A stretch of DNA of 64,000 nucleotides from Diadema antillarum (Eukaryota), in contig NW_027270920.1 in assembly GCF_040938485.1 (NCBI RefSeq), positions 868,001-932,000 on the forward strand, in the 5' to 3' direction. Made by a program: the position numbers. Below, one piece after another: positions 19,776 through 64,000 of this stretch (the stretch's first letter is position 1; each line of letters opens with the position of its first letter).

Positions 19776-22700
19776 AAACAAAGTGGATATTCAGTAGCAT
19801 CAAGCACACATGGCTCTAAATCTTGCAAAGCACTGAATATTTCTGCCATAGGTTTCACCTACATGTATAATCTTTCTGGATTTATCTGAAATGTGCCACA
19901 ATGAAATTTGATACATACAACAAATATGACCCTGGACCTACTTCACTTAAAAGATGAAAAATAAAAAATAACATCTTCTTTTCTTTCATTCAAGCCTTTC
20001 AAATTCCAGGATGCTTCCGTCTGTGGTAGTTATCATCCAAAATAGGATCCAGATGATAGACTGTAGAGTGAACTGGTTGATTGATTCCCTAAGCCCAAAG
20101 GATCCTCTTAAATTGGTCACAGAATGAAAATATTCCGTGGTCACTTTGAAAGTGAAACATGGTGTTGAAAGTGGGTAAAGGAAAGAAAAAAAAAATCAAT
20201 GCCAGGGAAGCTATCGAGGCCACTGTTGAGGCTGTTCAGGGGAGGAAAAAATAAACAGACCTCTTCAGGAAGTGCTTCTCATTCCCATCTGGAAATGTAT
20301 TCTTTTCTTTTCTTTTTTTTTTTTTGGGGGGGGGTTAAATTTGTTACTCAGAAAGGAAAGGGAAGGCTCTCACAAAATGAAAGCAGTCTGCTTCAAAGTA
20401 GGAACGCTTAGAGTAAGAATGGCTGTAACGTTACTGCAGATTTTGATCGAACAAACATCTTGTGCCTTCAGTATCATCCAGTGTAATTTTTAAGGAGCAT
20501 CACTGCTTTTAATAGCTGTCATACATTAATTTTGCTTTGGGGTCCTGCTGAACTAGTCTGCTTCAATGAAAAAGTCACGCAACAGCTGGAAGATCGATAC
20601 ACATGCCTTTCAGCTCACAGTGATTCTCAGCAAAGAATGCTCACTGGAAACTTGTGACAACCGCACAGACAATTCATTCTCACGAACTCTGGCAGTAAAA
20701 GACACCTACAGCAACTTCAACCTTTGTTTTGGAAGCTCGTGGTCATGGCAACCAAGCCGGATAATGCTGGTTCAACCATTACAGCAATTGTGAGCTTACT
20801 GTTGTGTGTTCAGGCCGCCACGCCTGCATCCTTTGACAATTTCCAAACAAGTCAGCAGGAATGCAGATTCAAAGAAACCAGTGTGGGTGTCAAGGTATCC
20901 TGTACACATCTCTATCTGACGGACGTCCCTCGGAATTTGCCAAACAACACCATCTCGCTTGACTTATCATTCAACAACATCACGCTGCAGCGGAATGATT
21001 CCTTTACTAGCTTGCCAATGCTGGAAATTCTCAATTTGCAATGGAATAATATAGCAATTATTAGAAAAGAAATCTTCTGGCCACTGGCAAGCTTAAGGAC
21101 TCTTATCTTGGGCGAGAATGCTATAGAGTATCTCGAGGCTGCAACATTTCTCTACAACCCTCATCTAACAATTGTACCATTGGCTTCCAACTGTCTCAAA
21201 GAAATTCCCACTGCTGCTTTATCAACCCTGTCTTCACTACAGTGGTAAATTTAGCAAGCAATTCTGTGAGATCCCTAAGCTTTAACGGATTTGAAAAATG
21301 GAAACACATCTCCGAACTTTCCTTGAAAGTAAACAATATAACTGAAATAAATCCCACTGATTTTCTTCCTCTGCAAAACACCACAGTAGAAATTCTTGAT
21401 CTGAGGGCAAACCAAATAGAGAGCTTACCTTACCAAGCATTCTTCTACTTGAAGAATGTCAATGCAATCAATCTTGGAGGGAATAACATCTTCTCGTTTG
21501 GCATCTGGCCTTTCCTGGGCATGAAAGAAATTAGTACCCTCACTGTTGAGGGTTCATCGATTCATGAGCTCCCCCCAATGAATACTTCCACAAATCTCTC
21601 ATTGCAATACCCAAACATTCCTAACCTTACCTTACGGTACAATTTCTTACAGTCTATCCCAAGTGGTGCTTTGTGGGGCTTTGACAAACTGAAGAAGCTT
21701 AATCTCTTTGCAAACAAGATTTCTGATATCACAAATGACTCTTTCTGTTGCCTGCTATCCTTAACAGACAGACCTTGATATGTCCCAAAACAAATTGTCC
21801 TTCATTCCACATGGAGCATTCTCTTGCTTGTCTCGCCTCCAGCAACTTAATGTGACAGGAAATGTACTGAACGTGGTTTCTCCACAGTCGTTTGCTGGCA
21901 TGAACTCAATAAGGACTTTAGTGCTTGCCAAGAATTTCATTGATGAAGTCCTAGAGACAGCATGGACCATCCCCACCCTTCAAACACTTGATCTCTCACA
22001 CAATCTCCTGGACACTCTCAAGAGCAGACGATTCACTGGTCTGTCAAACCTTCAAGCACTAAACATCTCGTTCAATCTTCTCACCATTATTACTCTGCAG
22101 TCCGTTTACTGGTCTATCAAACCTGCGGAAGTCTACATCTCAAATGAGAAACGTGCATATTTGAATGGCATGTTTAAGGCTTTGCCAAAGCTGCAATTCT
22201 TGGATGTGTCAAACAACCCGATCTCTTGGATGTCCATTGATCAATTCAGCAACAATGCTGACCTTGAGGAGCTGCGAATGGAACGAGGACAGCTACTGGG
22301 CAGAGTTTTGTTCGATAACAGTCAAAACAGTCTTTTTCAGAGGTCTCGTTTCCCTGGGAAAACTCCGTTTGAAGGGGAACTTTTTCCATCAAGTTGATCT
22401 TCGTACATTCTCAAATCTCTCCACACTTTACTACCTGGATATGAGTGAGTCACGTATCACTGTTCTTGTCCCTCGAATATTCAAAGATTTACACTCTCTA
22501 AAGTTCCTGTATCTGAACGACAACAAGCTACTAGCACTTAATGGGGATGTGTTTCAGGGACTTGGAAGCTTAACAGTACTTCTTATCCAGAATAATTCAC
22601 TCAGTAAAATTGAGAAGCAGACCTTTGCACATACTCCAGAGCTACGAGCACTGTATTTGCCTGGGAATCATATCAACACCATACTTCCTGGAACCTTCTT

Positions 22701-61600: not shown

Positions 61601-64000
61601 AACATTCCTAACCTTTCCCTACGGTATAATTTCTTACAATCTATCCCAAGTGGTGCCTTGTGGGGCTTTGACAAACTGAAGAGGCTTAACCTCCATGGAA
61701 ATAAGATTTCTGATATTACAAATGACTCTTTCTGTTGCCTACTATCTCTAGCAGACCTTGATATGTCCCAAAATGCATTGTCCTTCATTCCACATGGTGC
61801 ATTCTCTTGTTTGTCTACCCTCCAGCAGCTTAATGTGACAGGAAATGTTCTGAAGGTGGTTTCTCCACAGTCGTTTGCTGGCATGAACTCAATAAGGACT
61901 TTATTGCTTGCCAAAAATTTCATTGAGGAAGTATTAGGAGCAGCATGGACCATCCCTACCCTTCAAACACTTGATCTTTCACATAATCTCCTGGACACTC
62001 TCAAGAGCAGACGATTCACTGGTCTGTCAAACCTTCAAGTGCTAAATATCTCATTTAATCTTCTCACCATGTTCACTCTGCAGTCCGTTTATGGACTATC
62101 AAACCTGCAGAAGCTGTATGCCACAAATGAGAAACATTCATATTTGAATGGCATGCTTAAGGCTTTGCCAAAGCTGCAATACTTGGATGTGTCAAACAAC
62201 CCGATCTCCTGGATGTCCATTGATCAATTCACTCACAATGCTGTCCTTGAAGAGCTGCGAATGGAACGAGGACAGTTGCTGGGCAGAGACTTATTTGACA
62301 ACAGTCAAAACATGTCTATTTTCAGAGGCCTTGCTTCCCTGGGCAAGCTCCGTTTGAAAGGGAACTTTTTGCATCAATTAGATCTTCGAACATTCTCAAA
62401 CCTTTCCAATCTTTACTACCTGGATATGAGTGAGTCACGTATCACTGTTCTTGTCCCTCGAATATTCAAAGATTTACACTCTCTAAAGTTCCTGTATCTG
62501 AATGACAACAAGCTACTAGCACTTAATGGAGATGTGTTTCAGGGACTTGGAAGCTTAACAGTACTTCTTATCCAGAATAATTCACTCAGCAAAATTGAGA
62601 AACAGACTTTTGCACCTACTCCAGAGCTACGAGCACTGTATTTGCCTGGGAATCATATCAACACCATACTTCCTGGAACCTTCTTTCCGACCACAGATCA
62701 TTCTCTGTCTATTGACATCTCCAGGAATCCCATCTCCTGCACCTGTGAGCTACAGTGGTTCAGGAACTGGCTTCACACAGCCAACATCAGAATTGAACAT
62801 CCTGATCGGACACTGTGCTCCAGCGCCTCACTGCAGGTGCTCAAAAACAAGCCTCTACTGTCCTTTGATCCAGGTGACTTCTGTGGTGTGGACACCGCTC
62901 TCATCACTGGACTATCCCTGACAGGAGCGGCTGTCTTTCTTCTCACTGTCCTCGCTTACATCAATCGCTGGTGGCTGAACTACAAATTCTTTCTGCTGAA
63001 GCTAGCCTTGTTTGGCTACAAGGAGGTTGAGGAAGATGTGGCAGAGGAGGACTACCGCTACCAGCTCAACGTCATGTTCCACGACGATGATGAGGGGTTT
63101 GTGAATGACATCCTGAGACCAGCCTTGATGCAGAGGATGCCTCATCTGCAGCACATCATCTACGGGGACGATGACCTCAACGTAGGGATGTTCTATGTCG
63201 ACGCCCTCTATCATGCTATTGAGAGCAGCTACAAGTCAGTCCTTTTGATAAGCAATCAGTCTGTGGGTGATGTCTGGTTTATGACCAAGCTCCGTATGGC
63301 GCTGGAGCACTTGAATGAGACCAGACTGGACAAAATCATTCTTGTGTTTCTGGAGGACATTGAGGACGACAACCTGCCCTATCTTGTCAGGCTCTTTCTG
63401 AGTAGGAACAGGCCCTACATGTTGTGGACTGAGGATGAAGATGGACAGGAACTGTTCTGGGCCACTTTAGAGAAGAACATGAGGACTAACAGAGTTCTCA
63501 ACAATATCATTCCTGTTTGAGTTCAAATGGTGTAAAGAAACAGCACATGTTGGGCCAACGTTTGTGGGTAACACGCTTGTAAGTTACAGTGGACTCCAGC
63601 AATAATGAAGTCCTGGGGACCTGCATCTTTCTTTCGTTATTATCTAAATTTTGTAATCATAACCCAACAAATACACAATAAAAATACATAGAGTGCATAA
63701 TGTTGGAGCTGAATTTTTTCTTCGTTGTAACCAGAATTGAATTATAATTGTGTTCATTATTACGGGAGTGCCTCGTATCAATCCAGCCGAATAACCTTCA
63801 GTTTTCCTTGATTTACGTCCTTGTTCAGACTTCAAATCCAAATCACCAATATTTGGTGATTATTTGTACCTACACGTGTATAGATGAGTGTGCTTATAAA
63901 CTAAAAACAGCTGGTAAAGAGGAAAATGGAAACTATGTTTGATTTTATTTCACTATCTGAAAAAGAGACTGTAGACTTTGTCATAATATAATTGCATGTT

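What the first reader, a model, noticed from the sequence alone, without database searches (positions are those of the whole stretch)
20745..63520. Strict A-B-A-B-A-B alternation: the unit of amplification is a two-receptor cassette
Seen: class A (MANKLDNAGS..TPASFDNF) and class B (MAVAMATKLDTATS..TPTPSGHFHV) genes alternate, each with class-specific flanks. The period is 14.8-14.95 kb once the 2773-bp insertion is removed. Established: sea urchin TLRs are often intronless and tandemly clustered, and vertebrate TLRs can act as heterodimers (TLR1/2, TLR2/6). Inference: the pair may be co-amplified by accident of the breakpoint, or maintained as a functional A/B pair with balanced dosage. Cassette copy number is likely polymorphic.
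Basis: partly seen in the sequence, partly recalled or inferred. Interest (0 to 1): 0.65.

Follow-up and report, generated by a model that had tools for sequence, protein, structure and literature searches.

The report
Two-gene Toll-like receptor tandem array
A long-spined sea urchin (Diadema) carries a head-to-tail array in which a 15-kb unit holding two related Toll-like receptor genes is repeated three times; this is an ordinary product of unequal recombination, with one gene kept nearly identical between copies while the other has diverged.

Summary
Six intronless LRR-TM-TIR (Toll-like receptor) genes lie on the + strand in the order A-B-A-B-A-B. A 14.9-kb unit is repeated at 19273, 34156 and 51736, and the third copy is cut by the window end. 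The 2773-bp insertion is real (46882-49654) and consists of two adjacent TTAA-flanked inverted-repeat elements.

- Both genes of unit 1 are broken by frameshifts.
- "Class A" is defined only by the 5' end, a few scattered sites and the flanks. A1, A2 and A3 are as far from each other (91.8-93.9% nt) as from B, whereas B1-B3 are 98.5-99.3% alike.
- The gene bodies are mosaics of exchanged tracts.

Diadema setosum proteins are 98.3% identical to A3 and 98.5-98.7% to B, so both lineages predate the species split. Weak collinear spacer homology and even 7.4-kb gene spacing point to an older one-gene repeat.

Best reading: a higher-order tandem array kept in register by unequal crossing-over and gene conversion. 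B is homogenised and A is divergent.

A functional A/B pair (heterodimer, balanced dosage) was not tested and nothing here requires it. Copy number rests on one assembly. Interest is low to moderate.

The parts
19273..34155 (+). Repeat unit 1, at the left edge of the array. It holds A1 and B1, both broken.
   Evidence: Self-BLASTN offsets 14883/14897 to unit 2 and 32463/32537 to unit 3. Three-unit alignment. Left of 19273 there are only short scattered repeat matches.
34156..51735 (+). Repeat unit 2. It holds A2, B2 and the 2773-bp insertion.
51736..64000 (+). Repeat unit 3, cut by the window end 480 bp after B3. It holds A3 and B3.
20745..23535 (+). A1, a disrupted TLR gene. It has five frameshifting indels (-1, +4, +1, -1, -2) and no nonsense substitution.
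   Evidence: Indel contexts are not homopolymers.
28122..30926 (+). B1, a disrupted TLR gene. A -1 deletion near 28555 gives a stop at 28557-28559. A +1 insertion near 28722 restores the frame.
35554..38343 (+). A2, an intact 929-aa TLR with signal peptide, 25 LRRs, TM and TIR.
42993..45797 (+). B2, an intact 934-aa TLR.
53143..55932 (+). A3, an intact 929-aa TLR. Its C-terminal 545 aa are 98.3% identical to a Diadema setosum protein.
60716..63520 (+). B3, an intact 934-aa TLR.
27175..30870 (+). Homogenised B tract of unit 1, nearly identical to 42047-45740 and 59767-63465. It begins about 0.95 kb upstream of the B start codon.
   Evidence: Differences per 100 bp are mostly 0-5 between all three units, except one patch at 28372-28571.
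20955..21515 (+). Tract of A1 that carries the B state where A2 and A3 differ (dense at 20955-21183). B1 28299-28537 in turn departs from B2 and B3, sharing the state of all three A copies at 9 sites and of A1 alone at 4.
   Evidence: Site patterns, coordinates, clustering test.
36416..36870 (+). Two patches of A2 (36416-36599 and 36750-36870) that carry the B state where A1 and A3 differ.
55002..55333 (+). Tract of A3 that carries the B state where A1 and A2 differ. The D. setosum A3-like protein has the same tract.
46882..49654 (.). The 2773-bp insertion in unit 2. It is two adjacent TTAA-flanked terminal-inverted-repeat elements (about 46882-48880 and 48885-49650). No Pfam hit was found in the 2 stop-to-stop frames of 85 aa or more inside it.
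19196..19420 (+). Head of the unit: a poly-G run followed by a repeat that looks tRNA-derived by eye. It is present at all three unit starts.
   Evidence: Alignment. ARAGORN found 0 genes and Rfam 0 matches, so the tRNA likeness is my reading only.

Best explanation
This is a real higher-order tandem array of single-exon Toll-like receptor genes in a Diadema sea urchin, most likely D. antillarum.

Inferred history:
1. An older repeat of one gene plus spacer, with a period of about 7.4 kb, differentiated into two positional types, A and B.
2. The A+B dimer (14.9 kb) was then amplified head to tail by unequal crossing-over.
3. Since then the array has been reshuffled in register by crossing-over and gene conversion.

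The alternation follows from this mechanism. In-register partners share 14.9 kb of homology, with perfect runs of up to 1.6 kb. A and B share only about 3.3 kb at about 90%, with perfect runs of 212 bp or less.

The two positions evolve differently:
- The B gene with about 0.95 kb of upstream DNA is homogenised among units.
- The A genes are old lineages under purifying selection. They are divergent from each other and carry patches of B-type sequence.
- The A/B class signature survives only where exchange has not reached: the 5' end and the flanks.
- Unit 1, at the array edge, is decaying, with both genes frameshifted.

Shown: the anatomy, the mosaicism, the asymmetry, and the trans-species age of the A3 and B lineages.

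Inferred: the order of events, the direction of exchange, and receptor function (ligand sensing by the LRR ectodomain and TIR signalling, by family membership).
For: Cassette. In-register collinear homology covers genes and spacers (87.1-95.2%). Identity between units is a mosaic of 82-100% per 500 bp.

Asymmetry.
- B-B is 98.5-99.3% nt identical, A-A 91.8-93.9% and A-B 91.4-93.3%.
- dS is 0.019-0.032 for B-B, 0.158-0.198 for A-A and 0.157-0.214 for A-B.
- Sites unique to one copy: A3 70, A1 55, A2 35, B2 6, B1 4, B3 0.
- The near-identical B tract runs into non-coding DNA.

Mosaicism. The three pair patterns (A2A3 50 sites, A1A2 24, A1A3 21) are spatially clustered. 80 of 94 neighbouring sites are of the same type, against 36.1 +/- 4.3 in shuffles, and 0 of 5000 shuffles reach that.

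Age.
- D. setosum P0001 is 98.3% identical to A3 over 545 aa. A3 is 90.2-92.1% identical to the other five window copies.
- D. setosum P0122 is 98.5-98.7% identical to B1-B3.
- The tree groups (A3, P0001) at 98/99 and (A1, A2) at 95/98. The B clade with the two D. setosum B-like proteins has 90/90.

Older one-gene period.
- Gene starts are spaced 7377, 7432, 7439, 10150 (7377 without the insertion) and 7573 bp.
- The A-to-B and B-to-A spacers share four or five collinear blocks at 63-79%.

Recombination substrate. Perfect-identity runs are 674-1593 bp for B-B, 91-267 bp for A-A and 79-212 bp for A-B.

Selection.
- omega is 0.28-0.37 in the ectodomain for pairs that include an A copy. For B-B pairs it is 0.46-0.58, on only 5-29 differences. 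It is 0.04-0.13 in TM plus TIR.
- Codons unique to one copy, synonymous/nonsynonymous: A1 22/17, A2 17/7, A3 30/26.

Receptor identity. Pfam LRR_8 at E 2e-80 and TIR at 26.7 bits against a cut-off of 21.3. 25 LRRs. Signal-type and TM hydrophobic segments.
Against: - Only two full periods and one cut period are in view, and the right end of the array is unseen.
- A-A dS equals A-B dS. A simple "A/B split first, cassette amplified later" history predicts A-A below A-B. I must add A-B exchange or a quick succession of events to explain it.
- Post-speciation homogenisation of B is weakly supported. B1-B3 are 99.1-99.8% identical against 98.5-98.7% to the D. setosum protein, which is 1-5 versus 7-8 residues of 545. 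The node joining B1-B3 has 85/85 support.
- No D. setosum DNA or gene order could be read, and no D. setosum protein covers the class-defining N-terminus.
- B near-identity could be partly a polishing artefact. A published D. antillarum assembly used HiFi reads averaging 6.8 kb with short-read Racon polishing (PMC13511894, passages read). I did not establish which assembly the window is from.
- My dS values come from a simple Nei-Gojobori script, not a codon model.
Confidence: 0.7

Rival explanations
1. The A/B pair is a functional module kept together by selection. B would be a constant partner and A a variable partner that act together, for example as a heterodimer, so that dosage must stay balanced.
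For: - Strict alternation in 3 of 3 units.
- The two broken genes sit in the same unit. By chance that happens in 3 of 15 ways.
- B is near-constant while A is diverse.
- Variable residues are enriched at the exposed positions of the LRR beta-strand motif: 45 of 150 against 66 of 338 in the rest of the repeats, Fisher p = 0.014.
- 18 class-fixed residues, 7 of them in residues 11-36 (signal peptide and residues just after it).
- A2 and A3 have an extra cysteine at residue 100 that B lacks.
Against: - In-register recombination gives alternation without selection.
- No fixed difference lies in the TM or TIR region.
- A and B exchange tracts.
- Part of the class signature may be trivial. The B 'MAVA' extension is an upstream AAG-to-ATG change in frame.
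- The nearest solved relatives by sequence are TLR3, TLR13, TLR5 and TLR7-9. From general knowledge these act as homodimers. TLR1, 2 and 6 are not among the 60 best shown of 223.
- There are only three units.
Confidence: 0.1
2. Part of the array is an assembly artefact. Two of the units would be alleles of one unit placed in tandem, or the copy number would be mis-assembled because the reads are shorter than the repeat.
For: The D. antillarum genome paper PMC13511894 (passages read) reports the following for the annotated assembly:
- It retains both haplotypes (84.4% duplicated BUSCO).
- Heterozygosity is 2.52%.
- Mean HiFi read length is 6.8 kb, shorter than the 14.9-kb unit.
- It was polished with short reads.

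Units 2 and 3 are 99-100% identical over the first roughly 2 kb and 97-100% over about 5 kb around B.
Against: - All three unit pairs differ by about 5-13% overall, with many indels. That is well above 2.52%.
- Unit 1 alone has seven frameshifting indels, none in a homopolymer.
- Unit 2 has the TTAA-element insertion, which unit 1 lacks. Unit 3 ends before that point.
- There is no N in the window.
- The near-identical B tract (3.7 kb) is shorter than the mean read length.
- D. setosum has at least three distinct members (one A3-like, two B-like), each listed with a longest contig of 39.6 Mb.
- At most two of the three units could be alleles, so a tandem cassette would remain.
Confidence: 0.1
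3. The A copies differ because of positive diversifying selection on ligand contact, not because of age plus exchange.
For: - Enrichment of variable residues at the exposed beta-strand positions.
- Buckley and Rast 2012 (PMC3367398, passages read) report positive selection concentrated in LRR beta-strands in several S. purpuratus TLR subfamilies.
Against: - Pairwise omega for pairs that include an A copy is 0.28-0.37 in the ectodomain.
- Nonsynonymous codons do not outnumber synonymous ones among copy-unique codons in any A copy: 17/22, 7/17 and 26/30.
- A3 has changed by only 1.7% in protein since the split from D. setosum.
- Site models could not be run with six mosaic sequences.
Confidence: 0.1

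Closest known systems
Tandem arrays of single-exon TLR genes in sea urchins (for example subfamily Ic of Strongylocentrotus purpuratus; Buckley and Rast 2012, PMC3367398, passages read)
   Same: Vertebrate-type (single cysteine cluster) TLRs with 21-25 LRRs. They are clustered in tandem arrays, with pseudogenes mixed in, variable ectodomains and conserved TIR domains.
   Different: Here the period is a dimer of two positional types with opposite modes of evolution. The passages I read describe arrays of similar genes and do not mention alternating types or gene conversion ('gene conversion' occurs 0 times in that text). Protein identity to the S. purpuratus and Lytechinus hits is only 31-36%, so this is a Diadema-lineage subfamily.
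Higher-order repeats and concerted evolution in tandem gene families (general knowledge)
   Same: A multimer of diverged monomers is amplified as a unit. Homogenisation is in register. The repeat at the array edge is more divergent and is decaying.
   Different: Homogenisation here is confined to one of the two genes. The other keeps lineages older than the species split.
Vertebrate TLR2 with TLR1, TLR6 or TLR10 heterodimers
   Same: The idea of one common partner and several variable partners, with the variable ones tandemly duplicated.
   Different: No sequence affinity: the best solved matches are TLR3, TLR13, TLR5 and TLR7-9. A and B are 91-93% identical paralogues rather than distinct subfamilies. 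No evidence of binding.
Sp185/333 (SpTransformer) clusters of S. purpuratus (PMC5103432 and PMC3091723; search listing and abstract starts only)
   Same: An echinoid immune gene cluster shaped by segmental duplication and sequence exchange.
   Different: An unrelated protein family. Its clusters are described as flanked by short tandem repeats, which I did not find as the structuring element here.

Membership tests
Toll-like receptor, single-cysteine-cluster (vertebrate-type) architecture | Ectodomain of about 21-25 leucine-rich repeats | tested here: met
   Pfam LRR_8 at E 2e-80 and 4.8e-82. 25 repeats placed by the LxxLxLxxNxL motif, 22 by pattern and 3 added by eye.
Toll-like receptor, single-cysteine-cluster (vertebrate-type) architecture | N-terminal cap and a single C-terminal cysteine cluster flanking the LRRs | tested here: inconclusive
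   Cysteines at 45 and 58, and CxC...C...C at 675, 677, 701 and 723 of B2, fit by position. No Pfam LRRNT or LRRCT model matched at E <= 0.01.
Toll-like receptor, single-cysteine-cluster (vertebrate-type) architecture | One transmembrane helix followed by a cytoplasmic TIR domain | tested here: met
   Hydrophobic segment at 727-750 of B2. Pfam TIR at 26.7-26.8 bits against a cut-off of 21.3, residues 785-890.
Toll-like receptor, single-cysteine-cluster (vertebrate-type) architecture | Ligand-induced dimerisation and adaptor signalling | not testable with these tools
   No ligand is known. Function is inferred from architecture only.
Tandem segmental duplication (two-gene cassette) | Head-to-tail collinear homology that includes intergenic DNA, over at least two periods | tested here: met
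   two full units and one cut unit, all on the + strand.
Concerted evolution by gene conversion or unequal crossing-over | Spatially clustered, mutually incompatible site patterns (mosaic) | tested here: met
   80 of 94 neighbouring informative sites are of the same type. 0 of 5000 shuffles reach that.
Concerted evolution by gene conversion or unequal crossing-over | Paralogues within the genome more alike than orthologues between species | tested here: inconclusive
   For B: 99.1-99.8% within the window against 98.5-98.7% to D. setosum P0122 over 545 aa. The node joining B1-B3 has 85/85 support. For A the opposite holds: A3 is closer to D. setosum P0001 than to A1 or A2.
Concerted evolution by gene conversion or unequal crossing-over | The homogenised tract is not limited to coding sequence | tested here: met
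   The tract starts about 0.95 kb upstream of the B start codon.
Heterodimeric TLR pair (TLR2 with TLR1 or TLR6 type) | Membership of the TLR1/2/6/10 sequence family | tested here: not met
   The 60 best shown of 223 PDB matches include TLR3, TLR13, TLR5, TLR7, TLR8 and TLR9, but no TLR1, TLR2 or TLR6.
Heterodimeric TLR pair (TLR2 with TLR1 or TLR6 type) | Physical association of the two chains and co-expression in one cell | not tested
   The two full ectodomains (about 2 x 700 aa) exceed the 1000-residue limit of the complex predictor. A and B are too alike for a truncated test to separate A/B from A/A. No expression data were available.
TTAA-specific terminal-inverted-repeat element (piggyBac-like, non-autonomous), for the 2773-bp insertion | TTAA at both ends, terminal inverted repeats, and an empty site in a paralogous copy | tested here: met
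   Inverted repeats I4 (20 nt, 100%) and I5 (22 nt, 86%), each beginning or ending with TTAA. Unit 1 shows the uninterrupted site. No transposase domain was found in the 2 frames of 85 aa or more inside it. The likeness of the terminal CCCTAAAAAG to piggyBac ends is recalled, not tested.

The most novel reading that the evidence does not exclude
The cassette is a constant/variable receptor module. B would be a common subunit held uniform across the array by homogenisation. A would supply several old, trans-specifically maintained specificities. Each A would work with B as a heteromeric receptor, or under shared regulation, so that the array amplifies matched pairs. This would be an invertebrate analogue of one common TLR chain serving several specificity chains, encoded side by side.
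Probability: 0.1. Interest if true: 0.7.

Novelty: new member of a known kind. Interest (0 to 1): 0.3.

Why it matters
Sea urchins carry hundreds of TLR genes whose ligands and mode of action are unknown. How such families grow and diversify is the main thing genomics can say about them.

This locus is a compact, readable example. The same array shows two opposite regimes side by side: one gene homogenised, its neighbour kept as old divergent lineages shared between two Diadema species. The apparent gene "class" is a positional signature left where exchange does not reach.

There is also a practical point. Public protein models here are fragmentary, and only A3 is found full-length, so TLR counts for Diadema taken from annotation would be too low.

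D. antillarum has suffered mass die-offs. Immune-gene arrays like this one are therefore candidates for copy-number and allele surveys, but nothing here links the locus to disease.

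Tried and rejected
- Shorter-protein search. I looked for D. setosum proteins covering the class-defining N-terminus among proteins shorter than 510 aa. It gave 1 hit at 30% identity and nothing useful. Whether both N-terminal types exist in D. setosum stays open.
- tRNA and RNA-family scans of the window found nothing. The tRNA-like look of the unit head is unconfirmed.
- Pfam on 66 frames outside the TLR genes (63 of the 73 frames of 85 aa or more listed, plus 3 shorter left-flank frames; the 10 left out are in-register equivalents in units 2/3). 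It gave no transposase or reverse transcriptase, only two cyclophilin exons and one weak coiled-coil match.
- I considered whether the frameshifts in A1 and B1 are read errors. None of the 7 lies in a homopolymer, and the other four genes are intact, so I rejected this.
- I considered whether A1's decay is old. Its copy-unique codons are 22 synonymous to 17 nonsynonymous, no more relaxed than A3, so the breaks look recent.
- Complex prediction was not sent. The full ectodomains exceed the size limit, and A and B are too alike for it to discriminate.
- Structure prediction, fold search, the representative-protein search and the protein atlas were not used. The family is not in doubt, and those tools give no coordinates to map sites on.
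- Genomic context in D. setosum or in other D. antillarum contigs could not be read.
- Literature searches found no paper on a Diadema TLR array or on sea-urchin TLR heterodimers. The two Diadema genome papers I opened or saw listed mention TLRs only in general terms.
- One search returned no answer. I repeated the same computations.

Full report
**What is there.**
The window has no N. ORF listing under the standard code shows six homologous single-exon genes on the + strand.
- Four are intact: A2 35554-38343 (929 aa), B2 42993-45797 (934 aa), A3 53143-55932 (929 aa) and B3 60716-63520 (934 aa).
- Two are broken. A1 (20745-23535) falls into pieces of 167, 205 and 456 aa. B1 (28122-30926) falls into pieces of 145 and 670 aa.

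Pfam gives strong LRR matches (LRR_8, E 2e-80 and 4.8e-82) and a TIR domain above its cut-off (26.7 bits against 21.3). By motif I place 25 LRRs. There is a signal-type hydrophobic segment, one TM segment at 727-750, and cysteines in the positions of an N-cap and a single C-terminal cluster. The best full-length solved relative by sequence is TLR3 (7wv3_A, residues 56-891 against 12-841, E 1.5e-35). These are vertebrate-type Toll-like receptors.

**Organism.**
- The best database relatives are Diadema proteins: 92% to a D. setosum model, and 61-62% to other D. setosum and D. antillarum models. S. purpuratus and Lytechinus hits are 31-36% identical.
- The exact A3 protein is in the collection on a 1,920,982-bp contig. 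The named D. antillarum protein XP_071508073.1 is listed with a contig of the same length.
- By reading, that named protein is an internally started, differently ended model of A2.
- So the window is most likely D. antillarum. I did not try to establish which assembly or individual it comes from.
- A2, B2 and B3 are not in the collection as full-length proteins. The other members listed with that contig are the 528-aa model of A2 and models of 242, 242 and 545 aa that match the C-termini of A1, A2 and B1. Public annotation of this array is therefore fragmentary.

**The observation.**
- Self-BLASTN shows in-register homology covering genes and spacers (87.1-95.2% over pieces of 4.4-8.4 kb). Units start at 19273, 34156 and 51736.
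- A-versus-B homology covers only 3.3-3.46 kb at 88.0-89.8%.
- The insertion is exactly 46882-49654. It consists of two adjacent elements, each with terminal inverted repeats and TTAA at its ends. Unit 1 shows the uninterrupted site.
- The two frames of 85 aa or more inside it gave no Pfam match. Unit 3 ends before the corresponding point.

1. Unit 1 is dead. A1 has five frameshifting indels (-1, +4, +1, -1, -2). B1 has a -1 followed by a +1, with a stop codon directly after the deletion. None of the seven lies in a homopolymer. A1 has no nonsense substitution when read in the aligned frame.
2. In the coding alignment, B1-B3 are 98.5-99.3% identical. A1-A3 are only 91.8-93.9% identical to each other, no closer than A is to B (91.4-93.3%).
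3. Nei-Gojobori estimates give dS of 0.019-0.032 for B-B, 0.158-0.198 for A-A and 0.157-0.214 for A-B.
4. The class pattern (all A against all B) is carried by 58 sites, dense only at nt 32-198.
5. At the protein level 18 positions are fixed between the classes. Seven are in residues 11-36 and none in the TM or TIR region.
6. The four-residue B extension (MAVA) comes from an in-frame upstream AAG-to-ATG difference.

**Mosaic gene bodies.**
Three mutually incompatible patterns each occupy their own stretch:
- A2+A3 against the rest: 50 sites, at A1 20955-21515.
- A1+A3 against the rest: 21 sites, at A2 36416-36599 and 36750-36870.
- A1+A2 against the rest: 24 sites, at A3 55002-55333.

Of 94 neighbouring informative-site pairs, 80 are of the same type, against 36.1 +/- 4.3 in shuffles. 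0 of 5000 shuffles reach that value.

Each A copy thus has a different stretch in which it carries the B state. B1 in turn departs from B2 and B3 at 28299-28537. It shares the state of all three A copies at 9 sites and of A1 alone at 4. The direction of transfer is inferred, not shown.

Between whole units, identity per 500 bp swings between 82% and 100%. For example, units 2 and 3 are 98.3-100% identical over the first 2 kb, which includes the first roughly 0.5 kb of the A gene. They then drop to 89-94% through the rest of A.

**The B tract.**
From about 0.95 kb upstream of the B start codon to about the stop codon, the three units are nearly identical. The tracts are 27175-30870, 42047-45740 and 59767-63465. 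Differences are mostly 0-5 per 100 bp, and there are only a handful between 28871 and 30171.

Because the tract runs into non-coding DNA, coding constraint alone does not explain it. Recent exchange or spread does.

**Age of the lineages.**
Over the C-terminal 545 aa:
- D. setosum P0001 is 98.3% identical to A3. A3 is 90.2-92.1% identical to the other five window copies.
- D. setosum P0122 is 98.5-98.7% identical to B1-B3.
- A third D. setosum protein, P0127, is 95.6-95.8% identical to B.

A maximum-likelihood tree (11 rows, with two 65%-identical Diadema proteins as outgroup) gives:
- (A3, P0001) with support 98/99.
- (A1, A2) with support 95/98.
- A B clade of P0127, P0122 and B1-B3 with support 90/90. 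Within it, B1-B3 group at 85/85.
- The three groups are left unresolved against each other.

So A3 and B are lineages older than the split of the two Diadema species. In this part of the protein, "A" consists of at least two old lineages. The B-like stretch of A3 is also present in P0001 (100% identity to B over residues 630-689), so that exchange is old as well. Homogenisation of B after speciation is only weakly supported (1-5 against 7-8 differences in 545 residues).

**An older one-gene period.**
- Gene starts are evenly spaced: 7377, 7432, 7439, 10150 (7377 without the insertion) and 7573 bp.
- The A-to-B and B-to-A spacers share four or five collinear blocks at 63-79% identity.
- A-B identity is 58-85% in the 0.6 kb upstream and 80-99% inside the CDS. 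It collapses to about 40-55% just after the stop codon.

I read this as a hierarchy. A one-gene repeat became an A+B dimer, the dimer was amplified, and later A-B exchange was confined to the gene body. This would also explain why A-A and A-B dS are equal. The order of events is inferred.

**Why the alternation.**
Perfect-identity runs, the substrate of homologous recombination, are 674-1593 bp between B copies, 91-267 bp between A copies and 79-212 bp between A and B. In-register exchange is therefore strongly favoured, and it preserves the A-B-A-B order without any selection for pairing.

Both broken genes lie in unit 1, at the array edge. By chance, two broken genes of six fall in one unit in 3 of 15 ways. 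Edge repeats of tandem arrays are generally the least homogenised (general knowledge).

**Selection.**
- omega is 0.28-0.37 in the ectodomain for pairs that include an A copy. For B-B pairs it is 0.46-0.58, but on only 5-29 differences. It is 0.04-0.13 in TM plus TIR.
- Codons unique to one copy, synonymous/nonsynonymous: A1 22/17, A2 17/7, A3 30/26. The genes are under purifying selection overall.
- Variable residues are enriched at the exposed positions of the LRR beta-strand motif: 45 of 150, against 66 of 338 in the rest of the repeats, 8 of 125 at framework positions and 9 of 199 in TM plus cytoplasmic tail (Fisher p = 0.014 for the first two).
- That agrees with what Buckley and Rast 2012 describe for S. 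purpuratus TLR subfamilies (PMC3367398, passages read). It is modest here.

**Assembly caveat.**
The D. antillarum genome paper (PMC13511894, passages read) reports several things about the annotated assembly:
- It retains both haplotypes.
- Heterozygosity is 2.52%.
- HiFi reads average 6.8 kb.
- It was polished with short reads.

If the window is from such an assembly, copy number and the extreme B identity need confirmation.

Against an artefact:
- The units differ by 5-13%, with many indels.
- Unit 1 has unique frameshifts.
- Unit 2 has an insertion that unit 1 lacks.
- D. setosum shows at least three distinct family members, each listed with a longest contig of 39.6 Mb.

**The functional-pair idea.**
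Nothing I could run tests it. Full ectodomains exceed the complex predictor's size limit, and A and B are too alike for a truncated run to tell A/B from A/A, so no job was sent. No expression data were available.

The asymmetry (constant B, variable A) is the one feature that could be read in its favour. I keep it as the novel case at about 10%.

**Literature.**
- Searches found no description of a Diadema TLR array, of alternating TLR types in an echinoid array, or of sea-urchin TLR heterodimers.

**Left flank.**
The flanking exons were searched exon by exon. I made no joined spliced model of those genes.

**Verdict.**
This is a real and well-formed two-gene cassette array. It is ordinary in kind for sea-urchin immune receptors. 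Its instructive feature is the internal asymmetry.

Noticed in passing
window 46882-49654: The 2773-bp insertion is two abutting non-autonomous elements (about 46882-48880 and 48885-49650). Each has terminal inverted repeats and TTAA ends and they share the middle TTAA. One end reads TTAACCCTAAAAAGACTGGG, which recalls piggyBac termini (recalled, not tested).
   Followed up: partly
window 15672-15923 (-) and 17228-17524 (-): Two exons of a cyclophilin-type peptidyl-prolyl isomerase gene lie on the minus strand just left of the array (Pfam Pro_isomerase, E 1e-11 and 7e-13). They were searched exon by exon and not joined.
   Followed up: partly
window 1318-1560 (+), 4277-4546 (+), 9061-9498 (+): Coiled-coil-looking and proline-rich open frames on the plus strand. 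One gives a weak, below-cut-off match to the SAS-6 C-terminal coiled coil (20.3 bits against 27). This may be another single-copy gene to the left of the array.
   Followed up: no
window 19196-19420, 34080-34300, 51660-51880: Each unit begins with a poly-G run followed by a repeat whose first roughly 70 nt look tRNA-derived by eye. ARAGORN and Rfam find nothing. A SINE at the unit boundary could have mediated the first duplication, but the right end of the array is outside the window.
   Followed up: partly
window 27188-27476, 32579-32870, 42060-42348, 50158-50447, 59780-60068: A dispersed repeat of about 290 bp (81-82% between copies) sits both about 0.65-0.95 kb upstream of each B gene and in the tail of each unit. 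It also overlaps the start of the homogenised B tract.
   Followed up: no
window 35851-35853 and 53440-53442 (codon 100 of A2 and A3): A2 and A3 have an extra cysteine in LRR2 (LECNDI). B1-B3 and A1 have tryptophan there (LQWNNI). This gives an odd cysteine at an exposed position of the beta-strand motif. Its significance is unknown.
   Followed up: no
window 28955-29359, 43826-44230, 61549-61953 (-): A 134-aa antisense open frame is conserved in all three B genes. It is most simply a by-product of the near-identity of the B genes. There is no evidence that it is a gene.
   Followed up: no
window 16719-16950: A 115-bp segment is duplicated in tandem at 98% identity in the left flank.
   Followed up: no
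whole array, public protein models: Only A3 is present full-length in the protein collection. A2 appears as models of 242 aa and 528 aa (alternative end), A1 as 242 aa and B1 as 545 aa. B2 and B3 are not found at all. D. setosum relatives are likewise N-terminally short models of 545-585 aa. TLR counts taken from these annotations would be too low.
   Followed up: partly
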